Source: a phage
Reading direction: 5' to 3' (one strand)
DNA length: 64,000 bases
Assembly: GCA_019234695.1 (NCBI GenBank)
Contig: GCA_019234695.1_3937.1
In this document: one piece after another, positions 2,765 through 54,943 of the stretch
How the letters are laid out: the number at the start of each line of letters is the position of its first letter
Position numbering within the stretch: the first letter of the stretch is position 1
Program-made: the position numbers and the translations under genes
The notes under the pieces: model-generated
What the model was told of the DNA's origin: nothing
The model's database searches: none
Seen by the model: the letters and a program-made list of their open reading frames with translations, nothing else

Positions 2765-3874
2765 ATGACTACTAAAACTAAAGCACAGATTGACGCAGAA
2801 ATTTACAAACTGGTTAAAGAAGGTAAGCTGACTAAAACAGCTATTGCACAGAAATTTAATACTTCAACCCGTTCAGTCGGTCGTGCTGTAGAGCGTCATG
2901 AAGCAACCTTAAAAGGGAATAAGAAGGCAACTTCTACACCAGCTACGAAGTCTTTGAAACAAGTTGCTAAGACTTTTAAAAAGAAAGCTGGCAAACCAGT
3001 TGAAAAGGTTGTTAAAGATGCTGTACAGAAAGCTCCAGTAAATAAACTGCATGAAGCTATGCAGAAAGATGACAAGATTGAGTACATGATTACTGGTGAC
3101 TCTGTAATTATGACTTACGGTTCAGAGTCTGAAATTGTTGAGTCTACTCATCCGAACTATCAAGAGATTGTAGTTCATGTTGTGAAAGGTGAGTTTAAGA
3201 AAGCCTTTGAACTGATGAACATTCGTAAGTCTATCGAAAACTTCACTCAGGGTGCTATCACAATCAAAGGTGACAAACTATTCTACGGTGCTGTTGAGAT
3301 GCGTTCTACTCTGGTTGACCGTATTCTTCACATGATGAAGACTGGAGATAAAGGTTTTGAACGCCTTGTAATGTTCTTTGAAAAACTGATGGAAAACCCA
3401 TCTAAAGACTCTGTAGAACAACTTTGGGGCTTCGTATCTCACCTTGATGTTGAAATTGATGAAGAAGGCTACATCATTGGTTGGAAGAAAGTCTCTACTC
3501 GTGAAGGTAAGCTGGTTGACTCCCACACCTACAAAGTTCCTAACGATTTGGGTAACATTGTAGAGATGCCACGTTGGATGGTTGATAATAACCGTAACGT
3601 GACTTGCTCTCAAGGTCTTCATGTTGGTGCTTGGGATTATGTTCGTTGTTTCTCAGGTGATACAATTCTGAAGGTTCGTGTCCATCCACGAGATGTTGTA
3701 TCTGTTCCAACTGATTACAACGATATGAAGATGCGCTCATCTCGTTATGAAGTTGCAGCAATCGTTGATAATCAACGTAAAGTGTTGAAAGCATGGGATG
3801 GCAAGACTGAAGCTTTACATGTCATCGTTGGTACTGCTGGTGAACTCATCTCTCAGCGTAAACGTGAAATCTAA
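2765..3874 (+). CDS. rIIB: rIIB protein
   Basis: 369 aa; C-terminal half colinear with T4 rIIB (LFYGAVEMRSTLVDRIL, GLHVGAWDY, DVVSVP); directly downstream of rIIA. Confidence 0.85.
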   Translation: MTTKTKAQIDAEIYKLVKEGKLTKTAIAQKFNTSTRSVGRAVERHEATLKGNKKATSTPATKSLKQVAKTFKKKAGKPVEKVVKDAVQKAPVNKLHEAMQKDDKIEYMITGDSVIMTYGSESEIVESTHPNYQEIVVHVVKGEFKKAFELMNIRKSIENFTQGAITIKGDKLFYGAVEMRSTLVDRILHMMKTGDKGFERLVMFFEKLMENPSKDSVEQLWGFVSHLDVEIDEEGYIIGWKKVSTREGKLVDSHTYKVPNDLGNIVEMPRWMVDNNRNVTCSQGLHVGAWDYVRCFSGDTILKVRVHPRDVVSVPTDYNDMKMRSSRYEVAAIVDNQRKVLKAWDGKTEALHVIVGTAGELISQRKREI

Positions 3875-50491: not shown

Positions 50492-51667
50492 ATGGCAGTA
50501 GGTGAAATTCAAATTAGTGCCTTGCCACAAGCGGCCTTACCAGTTGATTTAAGTGATATCTTCCACCTTAAGCAAGGTGTTGAGGATAAAAGATGTACGC
50601 TTGAACAGTTGTTAGCACCTCACGCATCTCTGAGGAATAATCCTCATGGTGTAACCAAATCGCAAGTGGGTCTTGATAATGTTATTAACTCTCTCCAATT
50701 AGTTGCAGCCAATAACTTGTCAGACATTGTGAATGTTGCTGAGGCAAGAGCAAATCTACAAATTATGTCGTCAGAGGAAGTGAATAACTTAATTCAGCAG
50801 CATGTTGACGACAAAAGTAACCCACACAATACAACGAAAGCGCAGGTCGGTTTAAGTAATGTTCAGAACTGGACAACATCTAATCTGTACAATGAAGATG
50901 CTGATAAGTATGCTACCGCGAAAGCAGTTAATAATTTATACAAAGCTATCCAAGCGTCATATCCAGTAGGGACTATTCATCTATCTGTTAACTCTGCTAA
51001 CCCATCCACTTACTTGCTTTGTGGAGGTACTTGGGAGTTAGTTTCTAAAGGTAGAGCACTAGTTGGTTATGATACAGATTCTAGACCTGTTGGTTCAACG
51101 TTTGGTTCTCAGACTGTAGCATTAACAAATAATAATTTACCAGCACATACTCACTCTATCTATCTAACAGGTGGTGGTCATACACACTCTGCAAGTGTAT
51201 CTATCTCTAGTTTTGATTATGGTTCAAAAAGTACATCAACTTTTGATTACGGTACAAAAACGACTAATAGTGCTGGTGCTCACACTCACACGTTTAGTGG
51301 CACAACAAGTAATGCTGGTAACCACAACCATAGAGTCCCTATGAGGGGTAATGATAGGGGTGGCACAAACGCTATTACTGCATCTGCTGATGCTGGTGTT
51401 GGTAATGCTATGTATACTGATTTAGCTGGTGCTCACACCCATAGCTTCTCAGGTACAACTGCATCATCTGGTGCTCATAGCCATACTGTCGCAATTGGTG
51501 CTCACAGCCACACTGTTAATATTGGTTCGCACAGTCATACAGGTACTGTTACTGTTTCTAGCTCTGAGCATACACACTCAGGGACATCTGGTTCTGTTGG
51601 TGGTGGTCAAGCTTTCAGTGTTGAGCAGCCATCTTTTGTAGTGTATGTGTGGCAGAGAACAGCTTAA
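50492..51667 (+). CDS. tail fibre protein with His-X-His repeat C-terminal domain
   Basis: NPHG..K.QVGL.NV repeats near N-terminus; C-terminal GAHTHSFSGTT, GAHSHTVAIGAHSHTVNIGSHSHTG; tail ...WQRTA shared with next gene. Confidence 0.65.
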   Translation: MAVGEIQISALPQAALPVDLSDIFHLKQGVEDKRCTLEQLLAPHASLRNNPHGVTKSQVGLDNVINSLQLVAANNLSDIVNVAEARANLQIMSSEEVNNLIQQHVDDKSNPHNTTKAQVGLSNVQNWTTSNLYNEDADKYATAKAVNNLYKAIQASYPVGTIHLSVNSANPSTYLLCGGTWELVSKGRALVGYDTDSRPVGSTFGSQTVALTNNNLPAHTHSIYLTGGGHTHSASVSISSFDYGSKSTSTFDYGTKTTNSAGAHTHTFSGTTSNAGNHNHRVPMRGNDRGGTNAITASADAGVGNAMYTDLAGAHTHSFSGTTASSGAHSHTVAIGAHSHTVNIGSHSHTGTVTVSSSEHTHSGTSGSVGGGQAFSVEQPSFVVYVWQRTA

Positions 51668-51713
51668 TTTCTTTACAGGGGCTATAAAGCCCCTTTTAAG
51701 AGGAAAATTCATA

Positions 51714-54263
51714 ATGGCAGATTACAAATTGAGTCAATTAAACTCAATCGACACAATTCGTTCAGAAGACCTATTGCACATCAGAGTTAAGAAAAGACCT
51801 GAAATGTTGGGTGACGAAGACCGTAGAATGACCTATCAAGACTTCTTAGCTTCCTTCAAACTAGAAAGGTTTGTTCAGATTGCTGGGAGTACTATGGTTG
51901 GGGATTTAGGTATTGTCAAGTTACTTTACGGTGGTAAGGCAGTATTTGACCCAACAGGCTCTTCTGAGATTACTATTGGGGATATTTTAAAGACTTTTAA
52001 AATTAACTCAAATGGGCTTAAACTCACTATTGCAGATGCCACAAGGTCGGCAACTGTTTATCATACTTTGAATAAACCAAGCCCTAATGAACTTGGTATG
52101 AGAACTAATGAAGAGAATGATGCAAGATATGCAAGGCTTGCTGTTACAAACACATTCTCTGGAACTCAGAACATTCAAGGTGATGCTAACTTACTTCGTC
52201 TTAGAAACCAGAATGCAAATAATGCGCAATATATTGAGGGTGTGAACTTAGATGGTTCAGCTAGATGGTGGGTTGGTATTGGTAGTAATGGCTCTGATGA
52301 AGTAAAACTGTACAATAACAAATACAACTCAGCTTTGACTATTGCAAGCAATATCTCTGTTAATAAGTCTTTAGCAATCACTGGACAAGTTCAACCTTCA
52401 GATTTCTCTAACTTAGATGCTAGATACTTCACTCAGACAGTTGCTAATCAGAGATTTGCACAGTTAGCTGGCAATAATACTTTTACAGGTGCTAACACAT
52501 TTAGGACTATGAGTGTTATTTCAAATGCTGCTGCTATCACACTGCAATGTGCATCAGCAAACGAATCCCTGTATCTACTTGCAAAAGATTATGAAGGTGG
52601 AAACTTATGGTATCTTGGTAAAGGTAGTTCAGGTGCTGGTGTAACTATCTACAACTATACCACTAACACCTCTTTGGTCTTAGATGCTGCTGGAGTATCA
52701 GCAAATAAAAATGTCAGAATCACTGGACAAGTTCAACCTTCAGATTGGGCTAACATTGACTCTAGATATATTCCGGCAGCAACATTAAGTACAATTGCAA
52801 GAACTAATGCAAGGAATACTTTTAATGGTGTACAGACAGTTGTTACGGATAATGAAGGTCTGATTGTTAAAAACTCTACTCAGAATAGACCATTATATAT
52901 TCGTGGTGTGGACACTACTAATGTATCAAGATGGTGGATTGGTGTTGGTGGTGCTGATACGAATGATGTTACCCTAAATAACAGTTATTCTGGAACCCAA
53001 TTGGTTCTCGGAAATACAACATCATACATTAACAAAACATTGACTATTGCTGGACAAGTTCAACCTTCAGATTTCTCTAACTTAGATGCTAGATACTTTA
53101 CGCAAAGTGCTAGTGATAGCAGATACCTAAGAATCAGAAGTACTAGTTTTAATTTAGGAAACGGTGAAAAGTGGGCTAAAATCGCTACTGTTGTAATGCC
53201 ACAATCAACATCTACGGCAGTCATTGAGGTTTTTGGAGGTGCTGGTTTTAATGCGAATAACCCATACCAAGCAGGTAAGTGTGAAATTGTTTTACGAACG
53301 TCAAATAATAATCCAAAGGATTTAAATGCTGTAGCTTGGAGAACAGCAGATAATGCCCTCATCACGGATATTGGTTATATTAACACTTCTGGTGACACTT
53401 ATGATATTTACTGTAAGGTTGGTGGCTACCAAAATTCTACGGTATCTAGGGTTCAATCTTCTAGTAATGCAAGTGTACAGTTGTTTGAAGTACCGCAAAC
53501 ATTTGATGATGCTCCACAAGGTATTGTGAAGGGTACACTTGCAAGGTACTACACAAGTTTGCAAAAACCAACCCCTTCAGATATTGGTGCATACACTAAA
53601 GCAGAGACTGACCAGAAAATTGCAGAAGCAATTAGTGACTCTACAGACCTGAATAAAATCTATCCAGTAGGTATTGTGACGTGGTTTAACAGTAATGTCA
53701 ACCCAAACACAGCACTTCCTGGGTTAACTTGGACGTACCTGAATAATGGTGTTGGTAGAACTATTAGAATTGCAGCAGCAAACGGTTCAGATGTTGCTAC
53801 AACTGGTGGTTCAGACTCTGTAACGTTGTCTGTTGGTAACTTACCTTCACACACGCACAGCTTCTCTGCTACTACTTCATCATTTGACTATGGTACTAAG
53901 ACTTCTAGCACAACTGGTAACCACAACCACAACAGAGGTACTATGGAGATTACTGGTTCATTTGGTTACTTCAGAAGTGACGCTAGTAGCTTCTACACAG
54001 CAAGTGGTGCATTCTACCTCGGTAGTCAGGCAGGTTCTAAAGGGTATACTGGTAACAACTTTACTAATGGTATCCCTGTCAACTTCAACGCATCAAGAAA
54101 CTGGTCTGGTGTAACGAATACAACAGGTAACCACAGCCACACTGTTGGTATTGGTGCTCACAGCCACACAGTTAGCGGTAACACAGGTGGTACTGGTTCT
54201 GGTTCAGCATTTAGTGTTACTAACCAGTTCTATAAGTTAATGGCTTGGGTAAGAACTGCTTAA
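51714..54263 (+). CDS. large tail fibre protein with triplicated internal repeat and His-X-His C-terminus
   Basis: start moved to ATG 51714 (MADYKLSQ) after AAGAGGA RBS; three copies of ITGQVQPSDFSNLDARYFTQ; C-terminal GNHSHTVGIGAHSHTVSG ... WVRTA. Confidence 0.65.
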   Translation: MADYKLSQLNSIDTIRSEDLLHIRVKKRPEMLGDEDRRMTYQDFLASFKLERFVQIAGSTMVGDLGIVKLLYGGKAVFDPTGSSEITIGDILKTFKINSNGLKLTIADATRSATVYHTLNKPSPNELGMRTNEENDARYARLAVTNTFSGTQNIQGDANLLRLRNQNANNAQYIEGVNLDGSARWWVGIGSNGSDEVKLYNNKYNSALTIASNISVNKSLAITGQVQPSDFSNLDARYFTQTVANQRFAQLAGNNTFTGANTFRTMSVISNAAAITLQCASANESLYLLAKDYEGGNLWYLGKGSSGAGVTIYNYTTNTSLVLDAAGVSANKNVRITGQVQPSDWANIDSRYIPAATLSTIARTNARNTFNGVQTVVTDNEGLIVKNSTQNRPLYIRGVDTTNVSRWWIGVGGADTNDVTLNNSYSGTQLVLGNTTSYINKTLTIAGQVQPSDFSNLDARYFTQSASDSRYLRIRSTSFNLGNGEKWAKIATVVMPQSTSTAVIEVFGGAGFNANNPYQAGKCEIVLRTSNNNPKDLNAVAWRTADNALITDIGYINTSGDTYDIYCKVGGYQNSTVSRVQSSSNASVQLFEVPQTFDDAPQGIVKGTLARYYTSLQKPTPSDIGAYTKAETDQKIAEAISDSTDLNKIYPVGIVTWFNSNVNPNTALPGLTWTYLNNGVGRTIRIAAANGSDVATTGGSDSVTLSVGNLPSHTHSFSATTSSFDYGTKTSSTTGNHNHNRGTMEITGSFGYFRSDASSFYTASGAFYLGSQAGSKGYTGNNFTNGIPVNFNASRNWSGVTNTTGNHSHTVGIGAHSHTVSGNTGGTGSGSAFSVTNQFYKLMAWVRTA

Positions 54264-54342: not shown

Positions 54343-54537
54343 ATGCCTACAATCCTAGCAATTCTTCTAAAAAATCTAGGTAGCTTCTTCTGGAAACTCA
54401 TTTTATCCCTTCTAAGTGAATACATGATTGAGAAAGTGTTCTTTAAGCTTGCAAGATACCTTGCGAGTAAAACAGATACACCTATTGATGATGAGTTCGT
54501 AGATAACTTAGAAAAAGCTTTTAAGGGGGAGAAATAA
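54343..54537 (+). CDS. small membrane protein (possible lysis-associated)
   Basis: 64 aa with hydrophobic N-terminus; function not established. Confidence 0.35.
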   Translation: MPTILAILLKNLGSFFWKLILSLLSEYMIEKVFFKLARYLASKTDTPIDDEFVDNLEKAFKGEK

Positions 54538-54909
54538 ATGAAGTGGCTAGAGGAAGCTTTTAAAAATAATATTGGTGCAATTGTAGTTGGTATTTTTAGT
54601 GTTATTGGGATGTATACCACTATGCAAGTCTCAAGTGGTAAGCAGGAAGTGTCTGTCACAACAAAGTTACAGCAGCTAGATAATTATTCCAAAAGTAACT
54701 ATTCAGCTATTCGTGATTTACAGTCTGACATGAGATTGATTCAGCTAGGGATGGAGAACCAGAAAGTTCAGTTAGAGAATGTTAAGGGTGAAAACGCAAA
54801 ACTTACCAAAACCCTTGATAAATTCTCTGACAGTGTGAACAATCTGGCTCAATCAGTATCAGCCTTGCAAGCTATTACTGAAAAGAACACAAAGAATACT
54901 GAAAAATAA
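54538..54909 (+). CDS. small membrane-anchored coiled-coil protein
   Basis: N-terminal TM IGAIVVGIFSVIGMY then helical region; followed by bidirectional terminator. Confidence 0.45.
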   Translation: MKWLEEAFKNNIGAIVVGIFSVIGMYTTMQVSSGKQEVSVTTKLQQLDNYSKSNYSAIRDLQSDMRLIQLGMENQKVQLENVKGENAKLTKTLDKFSDSVNNLAQSVSALQAITEKNTKNTEK

Positions 54910-54915
54910 AATTTA

Positions 54916-54943
54916 AGGCTCCCGTAAAAAGGAGCCTTTTTTG
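54916..54943. terminator. bidirectional terminator between convergent blocks
   Basis: GGCTCC-CGTAAAAA-GGAGCC followed by TTTTTT. Confidence 0.65.

What the first reader, a model, noticed from the sequence alone, without database searches (positions are those of the whole stretch)
50492..54263. Two tail-fibre genes share a His-X-His repeat C-terminal domain; the larger has a triplicated internal repeat
Both end in arrays of G-(A/N)-H-(T/S)-H-(T/S) and a related tail (...QRTA / ...VRTA). His-X-His arrays coordinate metal ions in the receptor-binding needle of T4 long and short tail fibres. The 849-aa fibre has three copies of ITGQVQPSDFSNLDARYFTQ (DNA at ~52380, ~52725, ~53045), a likely substrate for recombinational host-range variation.
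Basis: partly seen in the sequence, partly recalled or inferred. Interest (0 to 1): 0.4.

Follow-up and report, generated by a model that had tools for sequence, protein, structure and literature searches.

The report
Felix-O1-type phage tail fibre pair
These are the short and long tail-fibre genes of a wV8/Felix-O1-like E. coli O157 phage, both ending in the metal-studded, T4-gp37-type receptor-binding needle already seen by cryo-EM in close relatives, so the finding is correct but ordinary.

Summary
The window is a Felixounavirus, 96-97% identical in DNA to phage KEP3 and about 96% to wV8.

- **Genes.** 50492-51667 encodes a 391-aa short fibre. 51714-54263 encodes an 849-aa long fibre.
- **Shared tip.** Both end in a tip homologous to the T4 gp37 tip (PDB 2XGF; E 1.7e-26 and 5.5e-7). 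It has a gp10-like collar, a His-x-His needle and a hypervariable head. The short fibre has 9 HxH motifs and the long fibre 4.
- **Internal repeat.** The "triplicated 20-mer" is the conserved joint that ends each of three tandem 108-114-aa domains (Pfam gp37_trimer x3, T7-gp17-pyramid-like).
- **Prior work.** Cryo-EM papers on Bas63 (2025) and Sf14 (2025) already describe this fibre pair and its HxH tips.
- **Recombination.** The three domain cores, a middle knob and the head behave as independently reassorting cassettes. They are about 50% identical in DNA but sit between 91-99% identical joints.
- **Copy number.** Three units occur in 233 of 234 Felixounavirus-type fibres returned by two homologue searches. 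Rare natural variants have 2, 4 or 5 units.
- **Host.** Isolation host tracks the tip allele, not the repeats.

Metal binding, trimer structure and any host-range effect remain inferred.

The parts
50492..51667 (+). Short tail fibre gene (391 aa; orthologue of wV8 gene 82, Bas63 gp26-type STF and Sf14 gp52)
   Evidence: ORF. 96-97% DNA identity to KEP3/wV8-type phages. phrog_2097 tail fibre, E 9e-139. wV8 annotation.
50912..51145 (+). STF collar domain (aa 141-218), gp10 C-terminal-like fold
51146..51331 (+). STF needle, outgoing strand with 4 HxH motifs (aa 219, 230, 264, 278)
   Evidence: Residues 219, 264 and 278 align to T4 gp37 H883, H915 and H929. Residue 230 lies in an insertion.
51332..51433 (+). 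STF head (tip) domain (aa 281-314), hypervariable
   Evidence: 3-29% identity in 47 of the 50 homologues tabulated, while the N-terminal 70 residues stay at 64-99%. AF2 pLDDT is below 50 at residues 287-307.
51434..51664 (+). STF needle, returning strand with 5 HxH motifs (aa 315, 329, 338, 347, 360), plus the C-terminal strand ending WQRTA that returns to the collar
   Evidence: Alignment to T4 H966, H980, H989 and H998, with residue 360 in an insertion. The AF2 model contains long strands 222-241 and 347-365 at the positions expected for the outgoing and returning needle strands; their pairing was not checked.
51678..51697 (+). Intergenic hairpin GGGGCT-ATAA-AGCCCC followed by TTTT, then RBS AAGAGGA and ATG at 51714
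   Evidence: Read directly. Annotated as a rho-independent terminator in wV8. My own consensus scan did not call it.
51714..54263 (+). Long tail fibre gene (849 aa; orthologue of wV8 gene 83, Bas63 gp27-type LTF and Sf14 gp53)
   Evidence: phrog_4277, full length; 100% identical proteins in public data.
51714..52112 (+). LTF N-terminal baseplate-binding region (aa 1-133), conserved
   Evidence: 90-100% identity across 120 homologues. Role inferred from Bas63 cryo-EM.
52113..52436 (+). Shaft unit 1 (aa 134-241); variable core about aa 142-227
   Evidence: Pfam gp37_trimer stretch. Own unit HMM. Cassette swap in L006 and L010 at 49-51% DNA identity.
52437..52778 (+). Shaft unit 2 (aa 242-355); variable core about aa 258-338
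   Evidence: Cassette swap in L007, L004, L005 and L011 at about 55% DNA identity between 97-99% identical flanks.
52779..53105 (+). Shaft unit 3 (aa 356-464); variable core about aa 360-451
   Evidence: Cassette swap in L008 and L010.
52377..52436 (+). Joint 1, ITGQVQPSDFSNLDARYFTQ
   Evidence: Short helices in the AF2 model at residues 228-231 and 236-238. Lies inside the conserved island aa 224-258.
52719..52778 (+). Joint 2, ITGQVQPSDWANIDSRYIPA
   Evidence: Conserved island aa 338-360.
53046..53105 (+). Joint 3, IAGQVQPSDFSNLDARYFTQ; shares 49 nt of exact DNA with joint 1
   Evidence: The SP22 homology breakpoint falls at 53097.
53106..53561 (+). Middle knob domain (aa 465-616); swappable cassette with an alternative Pfam gp37_C-type allele in other phages
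   Evidence: 10-18% identity in the 788-790-aa variants, with flanks at 94% or more in P0055 and P0056. P0056 carries gp37_C at 98.6 bits. tblastn matches to T-even gp37. AF2 pLDDT 70-87.
53562..53849 (+). LTF helix plus collar region (aa 617-712), conserved
   Evidence: 91-100% identity. Pfam Gp10_C at 25.0 bits, just under the cutoff of 27.
53850..53930 (+). LTF needle, outgoing strand with HxH at aa 713 and 737
   Evidence: Both His pairs are invariant in 37 homologues.
53931..54131 (+). LTF head (tip) domain (aa 740-806), hypervariable cassette
   Evidence: Identity falls to 9-21% in other alleles. 49% DNA identity in L011 between 95-98% flanks.
54132..54260 (+). LTF needle, returning strand with HxH at aa 807 and 816, plus the C-terminal strand ending WVRTA
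   Evidence: H807, H809, H816 and H818 are invariant.

Best explanation
The two genes encode the two side fibres of a Felix-O1-type myovirus.

- **Overall form (inferred).** By homology with T4 gp37 and the Bas63/Sf14 cryo-EM structures, each product forms a homotrimer. It is anchored to the baseplate by its N-terminus and ends in a T4-gp37-type tip.
- **Tip architecture (inferred from homology).** A gp10-like collar is followed by a needle in which each chain runs out and back, giving six strands. His-x-His motifs from the three chains meet on the three-fold axis and bind a column of metal ions (iron in T4). That gives up to 9 sites in the short fibre and 4 in the long fibre. A small head at the hairpin turn contacts the receptor, which for this genus is lipopolysaccharide.
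- **Shaft (shown).** The long fibre also carries three tandem pyramid-like beta domains. They are separated by a conserved short helical joint (ITGQVQPSD-x-x-N-x-D-x-RY), followed by a middle knob.
- **Recombination (shown).** The joints and the HxH boxes are near-identical in DNA among phages. They mark the edges of independently exchanged cassettes: the three unit cores, the knob and the head.
- **Function of exchange (inferred).** Homologous recombination at these patches is what reassorts the cassettes, and head exchange retargets the phage.
For: **Identity**
- 96-97% DNA identity to wV8-type phages.
- Same synteny of wedge genes, 100-aa platform, STF and LTF.

**Tip**
- phmmer against 2XGF gives E 1.7e-26 for the short fibre and 5.5e-7 for the long fibre.
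- Pfam Gp10_C hits both.
- HxH motifs align position by position with the seven T4 motifs.
- His residues are invariant or at least 90% conserved while the head varies.
- Bas63 cryo-EM describes the same collar, HxH needle and head in both fibres.
- T4 has seven irons, described as critical for fibre folding and structure (PMC6957217).

**Shaft**
- Pfam gp37_trimer matches three times, 256.7 bits.
- Foldseek hits T7 gp17 (4A0U) at E 1.4e-4.

**Recombination**
- The per-segment identity matrix is mosaic.
- DNA breakpoints fall at the joints.
- There are 65 distinct five-cassette combinations in 118 proteins. All four gametes are present for 6 of 10 segment pairs.
- Some unit types appear at the wrong position: P0053 has U1 and U3 90% identical.
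- Variants with 2, 4 and 5 units occur in the same synteny.

**Host**
- All 12 phage records with at least 99% identical tips were isolated on O157:H7. They include HY02 and MET-P1-301, whose shaft cassettes differ.
Against: - **No trimer model.** Only monomer AF2 was available. The short-fibre model has pLDDT 69. The long-fibre tip is below 50.
- **Metal not tested.** Metal identity and occupancy are untested.
- **Long fibre partly diverged.** It keeps only 4 of the 7 T4 HxH positions, and its Gp10_C score (25.0 bits) is just under Pfam's cutoff.
- **Host association is weak evidence.** It is a correlation among related isolates and depends on which strains were used for isolation.
- **Codon test is only suggestive.** The joints share 15 of 19 codons where 8.8 are expected, but the unit cores share 13 of 26. 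Structural constraint alone could therefore conserve the joints.
Confidence: 0.88

Rival explanations
1. The shaft units are inert spacers. Their diversity is old neutral divergence. The joints are conserved only because they form the helical trimer junction, so recombination there is incidental and has no effect on host range.
For: - Host tracks the tip allele rather than the shaft cassettes. HY02 and MET-P1-301 share a 100% identical tip with divergent shafts.
- Copy number is almost fixed at 3.
- The codon-identity excess in the joints is modest.
Against: - Unit cores fall into discrete alleles: 11-17 clusters at 75% identity. They are about 50% identical in DNA between 95-99% identical flanks and reassort freely.
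- That pattern is typical of loci under diversifying selection.
- Cores are as variable as the head.
Confidence: 0.4
2. The 2-, 4- and 5-unit fibres are assembly artefacts of repeat-containing metagenomic contigs, so copy number is truly invariant.
For: - P0241 (5 units) and P0072 (2 units) are each known from a single contig.
- P0072's contig has only about 6.7x coverage.
- The Bas63 paper reports no variation in repeat number among ICTV Felixounavirus species.
Against: - The five units of P0241 are only 34-62% identical to each other, and one is a novel type, so repeat mis-joining is unlikely.
- The 4-unit gene was found through its neighbour: the adjacent short-fibre protein is on 3 contigs in the ENA and Logan collections, and the 4-unit protein itself is on 2. 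The one locus read has an intact ORF, RBS and normal synteny.
- P0072's hybrid unit is not a chimera of neighbouring P2-like sequence.
Confidence: 0.12
3. The 391-aa protein is a gp10-like baseplate structural protein rather than a receptor-binding fibre.
For: - The only Pfam hit above threshold is Gp10_C.
- The best structure matches are to T4 gp10.
Against: - The gp10 similarity covers only the collar (residues about 143-240).
- The 2XGF match extends through the whole HxH needle to residue 362, at E 1.7e-26.
- The head is hypervariable.
- Cryo-EM shows the orthologue is a 430-Å fibre.
Confidence: 0.03

Closest known systems
T4 gp37 long-tail-fibre receptor-binding tip (PDB 2XGF; domains D10-D11)
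   Same: - Collar, six-stranded needle with axial HxH metal sites, head at the hairpin turn, and a C-terminal strand returning to the collar.
- Direct sequence homology.
   Different: - Here the tip ends a single-protein fibre of 391 or 849 aa, not a four-protein jointed fibre.
- The short fibre has 9 HxH motifs and the long fibre 4, against 7 in T4.
- The long-fibre head is larger (about 67 aa).
- No gp38 homologue is present in the 64-kb window.
Felixounavirus/Ounavirinae fibre pair: Bas63 gp26 (STF) and gp27 (LTF); Sf14 gp52/gp53; wV8 genes 82/83; Felix O1 'gp37-like' fibres
   Same: - Orthologous genes in the same synteny.
- Same lengths (391 aa, and about 780-850 aa).
- Same tip and repeated beta-domain shaft with helix-and-turn joints.
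   Different: - Allelic differences only.
- This phage carries the O157:H7-associated tip allele with 4 HxH and a long head. Bas63's LTF is reported with 6 HxH, and its STF with 7 in the needle.
T7 gp17 C-terminal pyramid domain (PDB 4A0T/4A0U); Pfam PF20744 gp37_trimer
   Same: - The shaft unit matches PF20744 three times.
- The model hits 4A0U by Foldseek at E 1.4e-4 and weakly by sequence, E 0.01.
   Different: - It is present as three tandem copies in mid-shaft, rather than once before a tip domain.
- The overall model confidence is low.
Conserved-motif ('His box') recombination in T-even gp37/gp38 adhesin loci (Tétart and colleagues, late 1990s; recalled from memory, not retrieved here)
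   Same: - Short conserved motifs, including GxHxH boxes, flank hypervariable segments and act as crossover points that swap specificity.
   Different: - Here the same logic extends to the shaft. A 20-aa joint repeated three times within one gene allows both in-register allele exchange and rare out-of-register changes in unit number.

Membership tests
T4 gp37-type receptor-binding tip | Significant sequence homology to the solved gp37 tip across collar and needle | tested here: met
   Short fibre: E 1.7e-26, residues 145-362 against 2XGF residues 17-227. Long fibre: E 5.5e-7, residues 707-828.
T4 gp37-type receptor-binding tip | HxH motifs on both the outgoing and returning strands at positions homologous to the T4 iron ligands | tested here: met
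   Alignment. The short fibre matches all 7 T4 motifs plus 2 extra in paired insertions. The long fibre matches 4 (equivalents of T4 883, 915, 980 and 989). The His residues are conserved.
T4 gp37-type receptor-binding tip | gp10/gp11/gp12-like collar domain before the needle | tested here: met
   Short fibre: Pfam Gp10_C at 67.4 bits against a cutoff of 27, with 2FKK structural matches. Long fibre: borderline only, 25.0 bits.
T4 gp37-type receptor-binding tip | Intertwined homotrimer with a hairpin topology and the head at the turn | tested here: inconclusive
T4 gp37-type receptor-binding tip | Octahedral metal (Fe) coordination by His triads | not testable with these tools
   Needs metal analysis or a structure.
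T4 gp37-type receptor-binding tip | Dependence on the gp38/gp57A chaperones | tested here: not met
   No gp38 homologue in the 64-kb window (tblastn). The two ORFs downstream of the long fibre have no chaperone family hit. gp57A was not searched. The Sf14 authors also report no fibre chaperone. This is a feature of T4 assembly rather than of the fold.
Felixounavirus STF/LTF pair | Orthology and synteny with the wV8/Felix O1/Bas63/Sf14 fibre genes (wedge genes, about 100-aa platform, STF, LTF) | tested here: met
   100% identical LTF proteins exist in public data.
Pfam PF20744 gp37_trimer / T7 gp17 pyramid-like shaft domain | Profile match above the gathering score, in tandem copies | tested here: met
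   256.7 bits with 3 stretches. Own HMM finds 3 units at E 1e-51 to 5e-58. Foldseek hits 4A0U at E 1.4e-4.

The most novel reading that the evidence does not exclude
The three shaft-unit cores are not inert spacers. They are discrete-allele cassettes under diversifying selection. They reassort independently through the repeated 20-aa joints and occasionally change in number (2, 4 or 5 units). This would imply a second layer of specificity along the fibre shaft, for example lateral glycan contacts or sheath docking in the retracted state, which the published Felixounavirus structures did not recognise.
Probability: 0.3. Interest if true: 0.45.

Novelty: already known. Interest (0 to 1): 0.2.

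Why it matters
As a finding it mainly confirms the annotation. These are the receptor-binding fibres of a Felix-O1-type O157 phage, with a tip architecture already solved in T4 and seen by cryo-EM in Bas63 and Sf14.

Its practical value is a cassette map for engineering or predicting host range in phages used for O157 and Salmonella biocontrol:
- joints at residues 222-241, 336-355 and 445-464;
- knob at residues 465-616;
- head at residues 740-806, flanked by HxH boxes.

The modest new points are:
- each shaft unit reassorts independently;
- rare 2-, 4- and 5-unit fibres exist, which qualifies the published statement that repeat number does not vary.

Tried and rejected
- **Apparent breakpoint at query position 3427.** For SUT_S720 this is just the end of the GenBank record, not a recombination point.
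- **Codon-identity test for gene conversion between joints.** The joints share 15 of 19 codons against 8.8 expected, but the cores also share 13 of 26. This is only suggestive. The within-genome GGA/GGT covariation among joints rests on too small a sample.
- **Own 3-unit HMM against T4 gp34, gp36 and gp37.** No significant match. The Pfam name 'gp37_trimer' therefore does not mean T4 gp37 carries this unit.
- **Self-BLASTP of the long fibre.** It returned only the identity hit, so the repeat was dissected with an alignment and an HMM instead.
- **Papers not held.** The primary T4 tip paper (PMC2996694) and the T4 fibre review (PMC5899708) are not in the library. T4 facts are taken from PMC6957217 and PMC12609058.
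- **'His box' recombination literature.** A search did not retrieve it, so it is cited from memory only.
Full report
**What the window is.** The region is 96.6% identical in DNA to Escherichia phage KEP3 and about 96% identical to wV8 and the O157 typing phages. 235 phage records match it, almost all of them Felixounavirus. Upstream lie the Mu/P2-type wedge genes (489 aa and 284 aa) and a 100-aa protein. Downstream lie two small ORFs and a convergent thyA-frd operon. The two genes are therefore wV8 genes 82 and 83, which are annotated as tail fibres.

**Checking the observation.**
- ORF 50492-51667 encodes 391 aa.
- The larger gene starts at ATG 51714 and encodes 849 aa. The start is preceded by the RBS AAGAGGA and by a hairpin, GGGGCT-ATAA-AGCCCC-TTTT, at 51678-51697. 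wV8 annotates that hairpin as a terminator. The 872-aa reading from 51645 is spurious.
- The 391-aa protein has 9 HxH motifs and the 849-aa protein has 4. None of 20000 shuffles reached either count. No other ORF in the window has 2 or more.
- The two C-terminal regions are homologous: 31.7% identity over 221 aa, E 6e-17.
- The 20-aa motif occurs at 52377, 52719 and 53046. Copies 1 and 3 share 49 nt of exact DNA. Copy 2 is diverged.
- The true repeat is a tandem domain of 108-114 aa (residues 134-241, 242-355, 356-464). The units are 33-44% identical, and the 20-mer is the C-terminal joint of each unit.

**What the C-terminal domains are.**
- phmmer against all PDB sequences places the short fibre (residues 145-362) on the T4 gp37 receptor-binding tip 2XGF at E 1.7e-26. 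It also matches T4 gp10 at E about 1e-5 to 1e-6, over the collar only.
- The long fibre (residues 707-828) hits 2XGF at E 5.5e-7.
- Pfam gives Gp10_C at 67.4 bits for the short fibre and 25.0 bits for the long fibre, against a cutoff of 27.
- A three-way alignment shows how the motifs correspond. The short-fibre motifs at 219, 264 and 278, then 315, 329, 338 and 347, match T4 H883, H915 and H929, then H966, H980, H989 and H998. Two further motifs (230 and 360) sit in insertions on the outgoing and returning strands.
- The long fibre keeps only the equivalents of T4 883, 915, 980 and 989. It has a 67-aa segment between them.
- In T4 these seven HxH triads bind seven irons along the needle, and this is described as critical for fibre folding and structure. 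The collar has the gp10/gp11/gp12 fold (PMC6957217).
- The His residues are invariant or nearly so among homologues, while the segment at the turn is hypervariable.
- Monomer AlphaFold2 models were not decisive. The short-fibre model (pLDDT 69) has long strands at 222-241 and 347-365, flanking a disordered head; whether they pair was not checked. The long-fibre tip was below pLDDT 50.

**What is already published.**
- Cryo-EM of Bas63 (Felixounavirus) describes a 430-Å STF (gp26) and a 630-Å LTF (gp27). Both have a T4-gp37-like collar, HxH needle and head. [quoted passage not shown]
- The Sf14 structure describes fibres of 391 and 792 aa with gp10-C-like, T7-gp17-like and gp37-like parts, and no chaperone (PMC11821841).

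**The shaft repeat.**
- Pfam PF20744 (gp37_trimer) matches three times, 256.7 bits in total.
- The better-predicted cores (pLDDT 70-87) give Foldseek hits to T7 gp17 (4A0U, E 1.4e-4) and to N-terminal domains of tailspikes.
- The joints are predicted as short helices at residues 228-231, 342-345 and 451-454. This fits the helix-and-turn motif described for Bas63.

**Recombination.** I split 120 homologues into segments and measured identity to this protein.
- The N-terminus (90-100%) and the collar (91-100%) are conserved.
- Unit 1, unit 2, unit 3, the middle knob (465-616) and the head (740-806) each switch independently between discrete alleles:

| Homologue | Diverged segment | Identity | Other segments |
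|---|---|---|---|
| P0027 | unit 1 | 54% | 86-100% |
| P0018 | unit 2 | 61% | 84-100% |
| P0030 | unit 3 | 42% | 84-100% |
| P0055 | knob | 16% | 81-100% |
| P0044 | head | 21% | 60-100% |

- At DNA level the variable cassettes are the unit cores (residues about 142-227, 258-338 and 360-451). They are 49-55% identical. They are separated by islands of 91-99% identity that contain the joints (residues 224-258, 338-360, 450-476). The head cassette (733-809) is bounded by HxH boxes.
- Clustering gives 11, 13, 17, 4 and 17 alleles for the five segments. There are 65 distinct combinations in 118 proteins. All four gametes are present for 6 of 10 segment pairs.
- Unit types are mostly position-specific, but some appear out of register. 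In P0053, units 1 and 3 are 90% identical. The figures are 72% in P0071 and 65% in P0011, against 44% here.

**Copy number.**
- 119 of the 120 best homologues have 3 units. One, P0072 (740 aa), has 2, with a junction at the RWWxGxG motif.
- A profile of the three units was searched against 1.84 billion representative proteins. It found orthologues with 5 units (P0241, 1015 aa) and 4 units (P0242).
- Both lie in the same synteny on 77-87-kb contigs.
- The 4-unit gene is really 931 aa, with an MAEYNL start and an RBS. The 4-unit protein is on 2 contigs, and its neighbouring short-fibre protein is on 3.
- P0241's five units are only 34-62% identical to each other, and its nearest relatives have 3 units. 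It is therefore not a collapsed or expanded assembly of identical repeats. Pfam also counts 5 stretches.
- All 114 other relatives of P0241 that were returned have 3 units.
- Copy number is thus strongly held at 3 but is not invariant. This qualifies the statement in the Bas63 paper.

**Host association.**
- A tblastn search with the tip (residues 725-849) shows that all 12 records at 99% identity or more were isolated on E. coli O157:H7 (one is listed under strain ATCC 35150, which I know to be O157:H7).
- They include HY02 and MET-P1-301, whose shaft cassettes differ strongly.
- Shigella and Citrobacter phages sit at 60-70% identity.
- Only one Salmonella phage appears among the 60 best, as a partial match.
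- This is a correlation only, but it points to the head rather than the repeats as the host-linked module.

**Verdict.** This is a correct reading of an ordinary and already characterised feature. The incremental content is the cassette map and the rare copy-number variants.

Noticed in passing
window 50636-50683 and 50816-50863: The short fibre's N-terminal half has its own two-copy motif, NNPHGVTKSQVGLDNV and SNPHNTTKAQVGLSNV (aa 49-64 and 109-124). It probably corresponds to the helix-and-turn joints that the Bas63 authors note in the STF.
   Followed up: no
window 51645-51713: The mechanical ORF for the long fibre opens 69 nt too early. The real start is ATG 51714, after a terminator-like hairpin (51678-51697) and the RBS AAGAGGA. 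A terminator between two co-directional fibre genes could set their expression ratio.
   Followed up: partly
window 54343-54909: Two small ORFs (64 and 123 aa) follow the long fibre. By eye both have hydrophobic N-termini (not tested). A homologue of the 64-aa ORF carries Pfam PF26925 (Phage_PM2_GpI). Neither resembles a gp38- or Tfa-type fibre chaperone, and no gp38 homologue is found anywhere in the window.
   Followed up: partly
window 54915-54938: A strong bidirectional terminator hairpin (AAGGCTCC...GGAGCCTT, flanked by T-runs on both strands) lies between the late structural genes and the convergent thyA-frd operon.
   Followed up: no
L013 3001-6048; L012 6311-9106; L009 1501-3723: Natural long-fibre variants have 5, 4 and 2 shaft units in otherwise syntenic Ounavirinae-like contigs. 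The 5-unit fibre contains a unit type not seen in its 3-unit relatives.
   Followed up: yes
public records MG065664.1 and protein P0426: Felixounavirus fibre genes appear in records labelled Campylobacter phage A132 and Methanobrevibacter gottschalkii, and in one Staphylococcus-labelled record. These are most likely mislabelled or contaminated entries.
   Followed up: no
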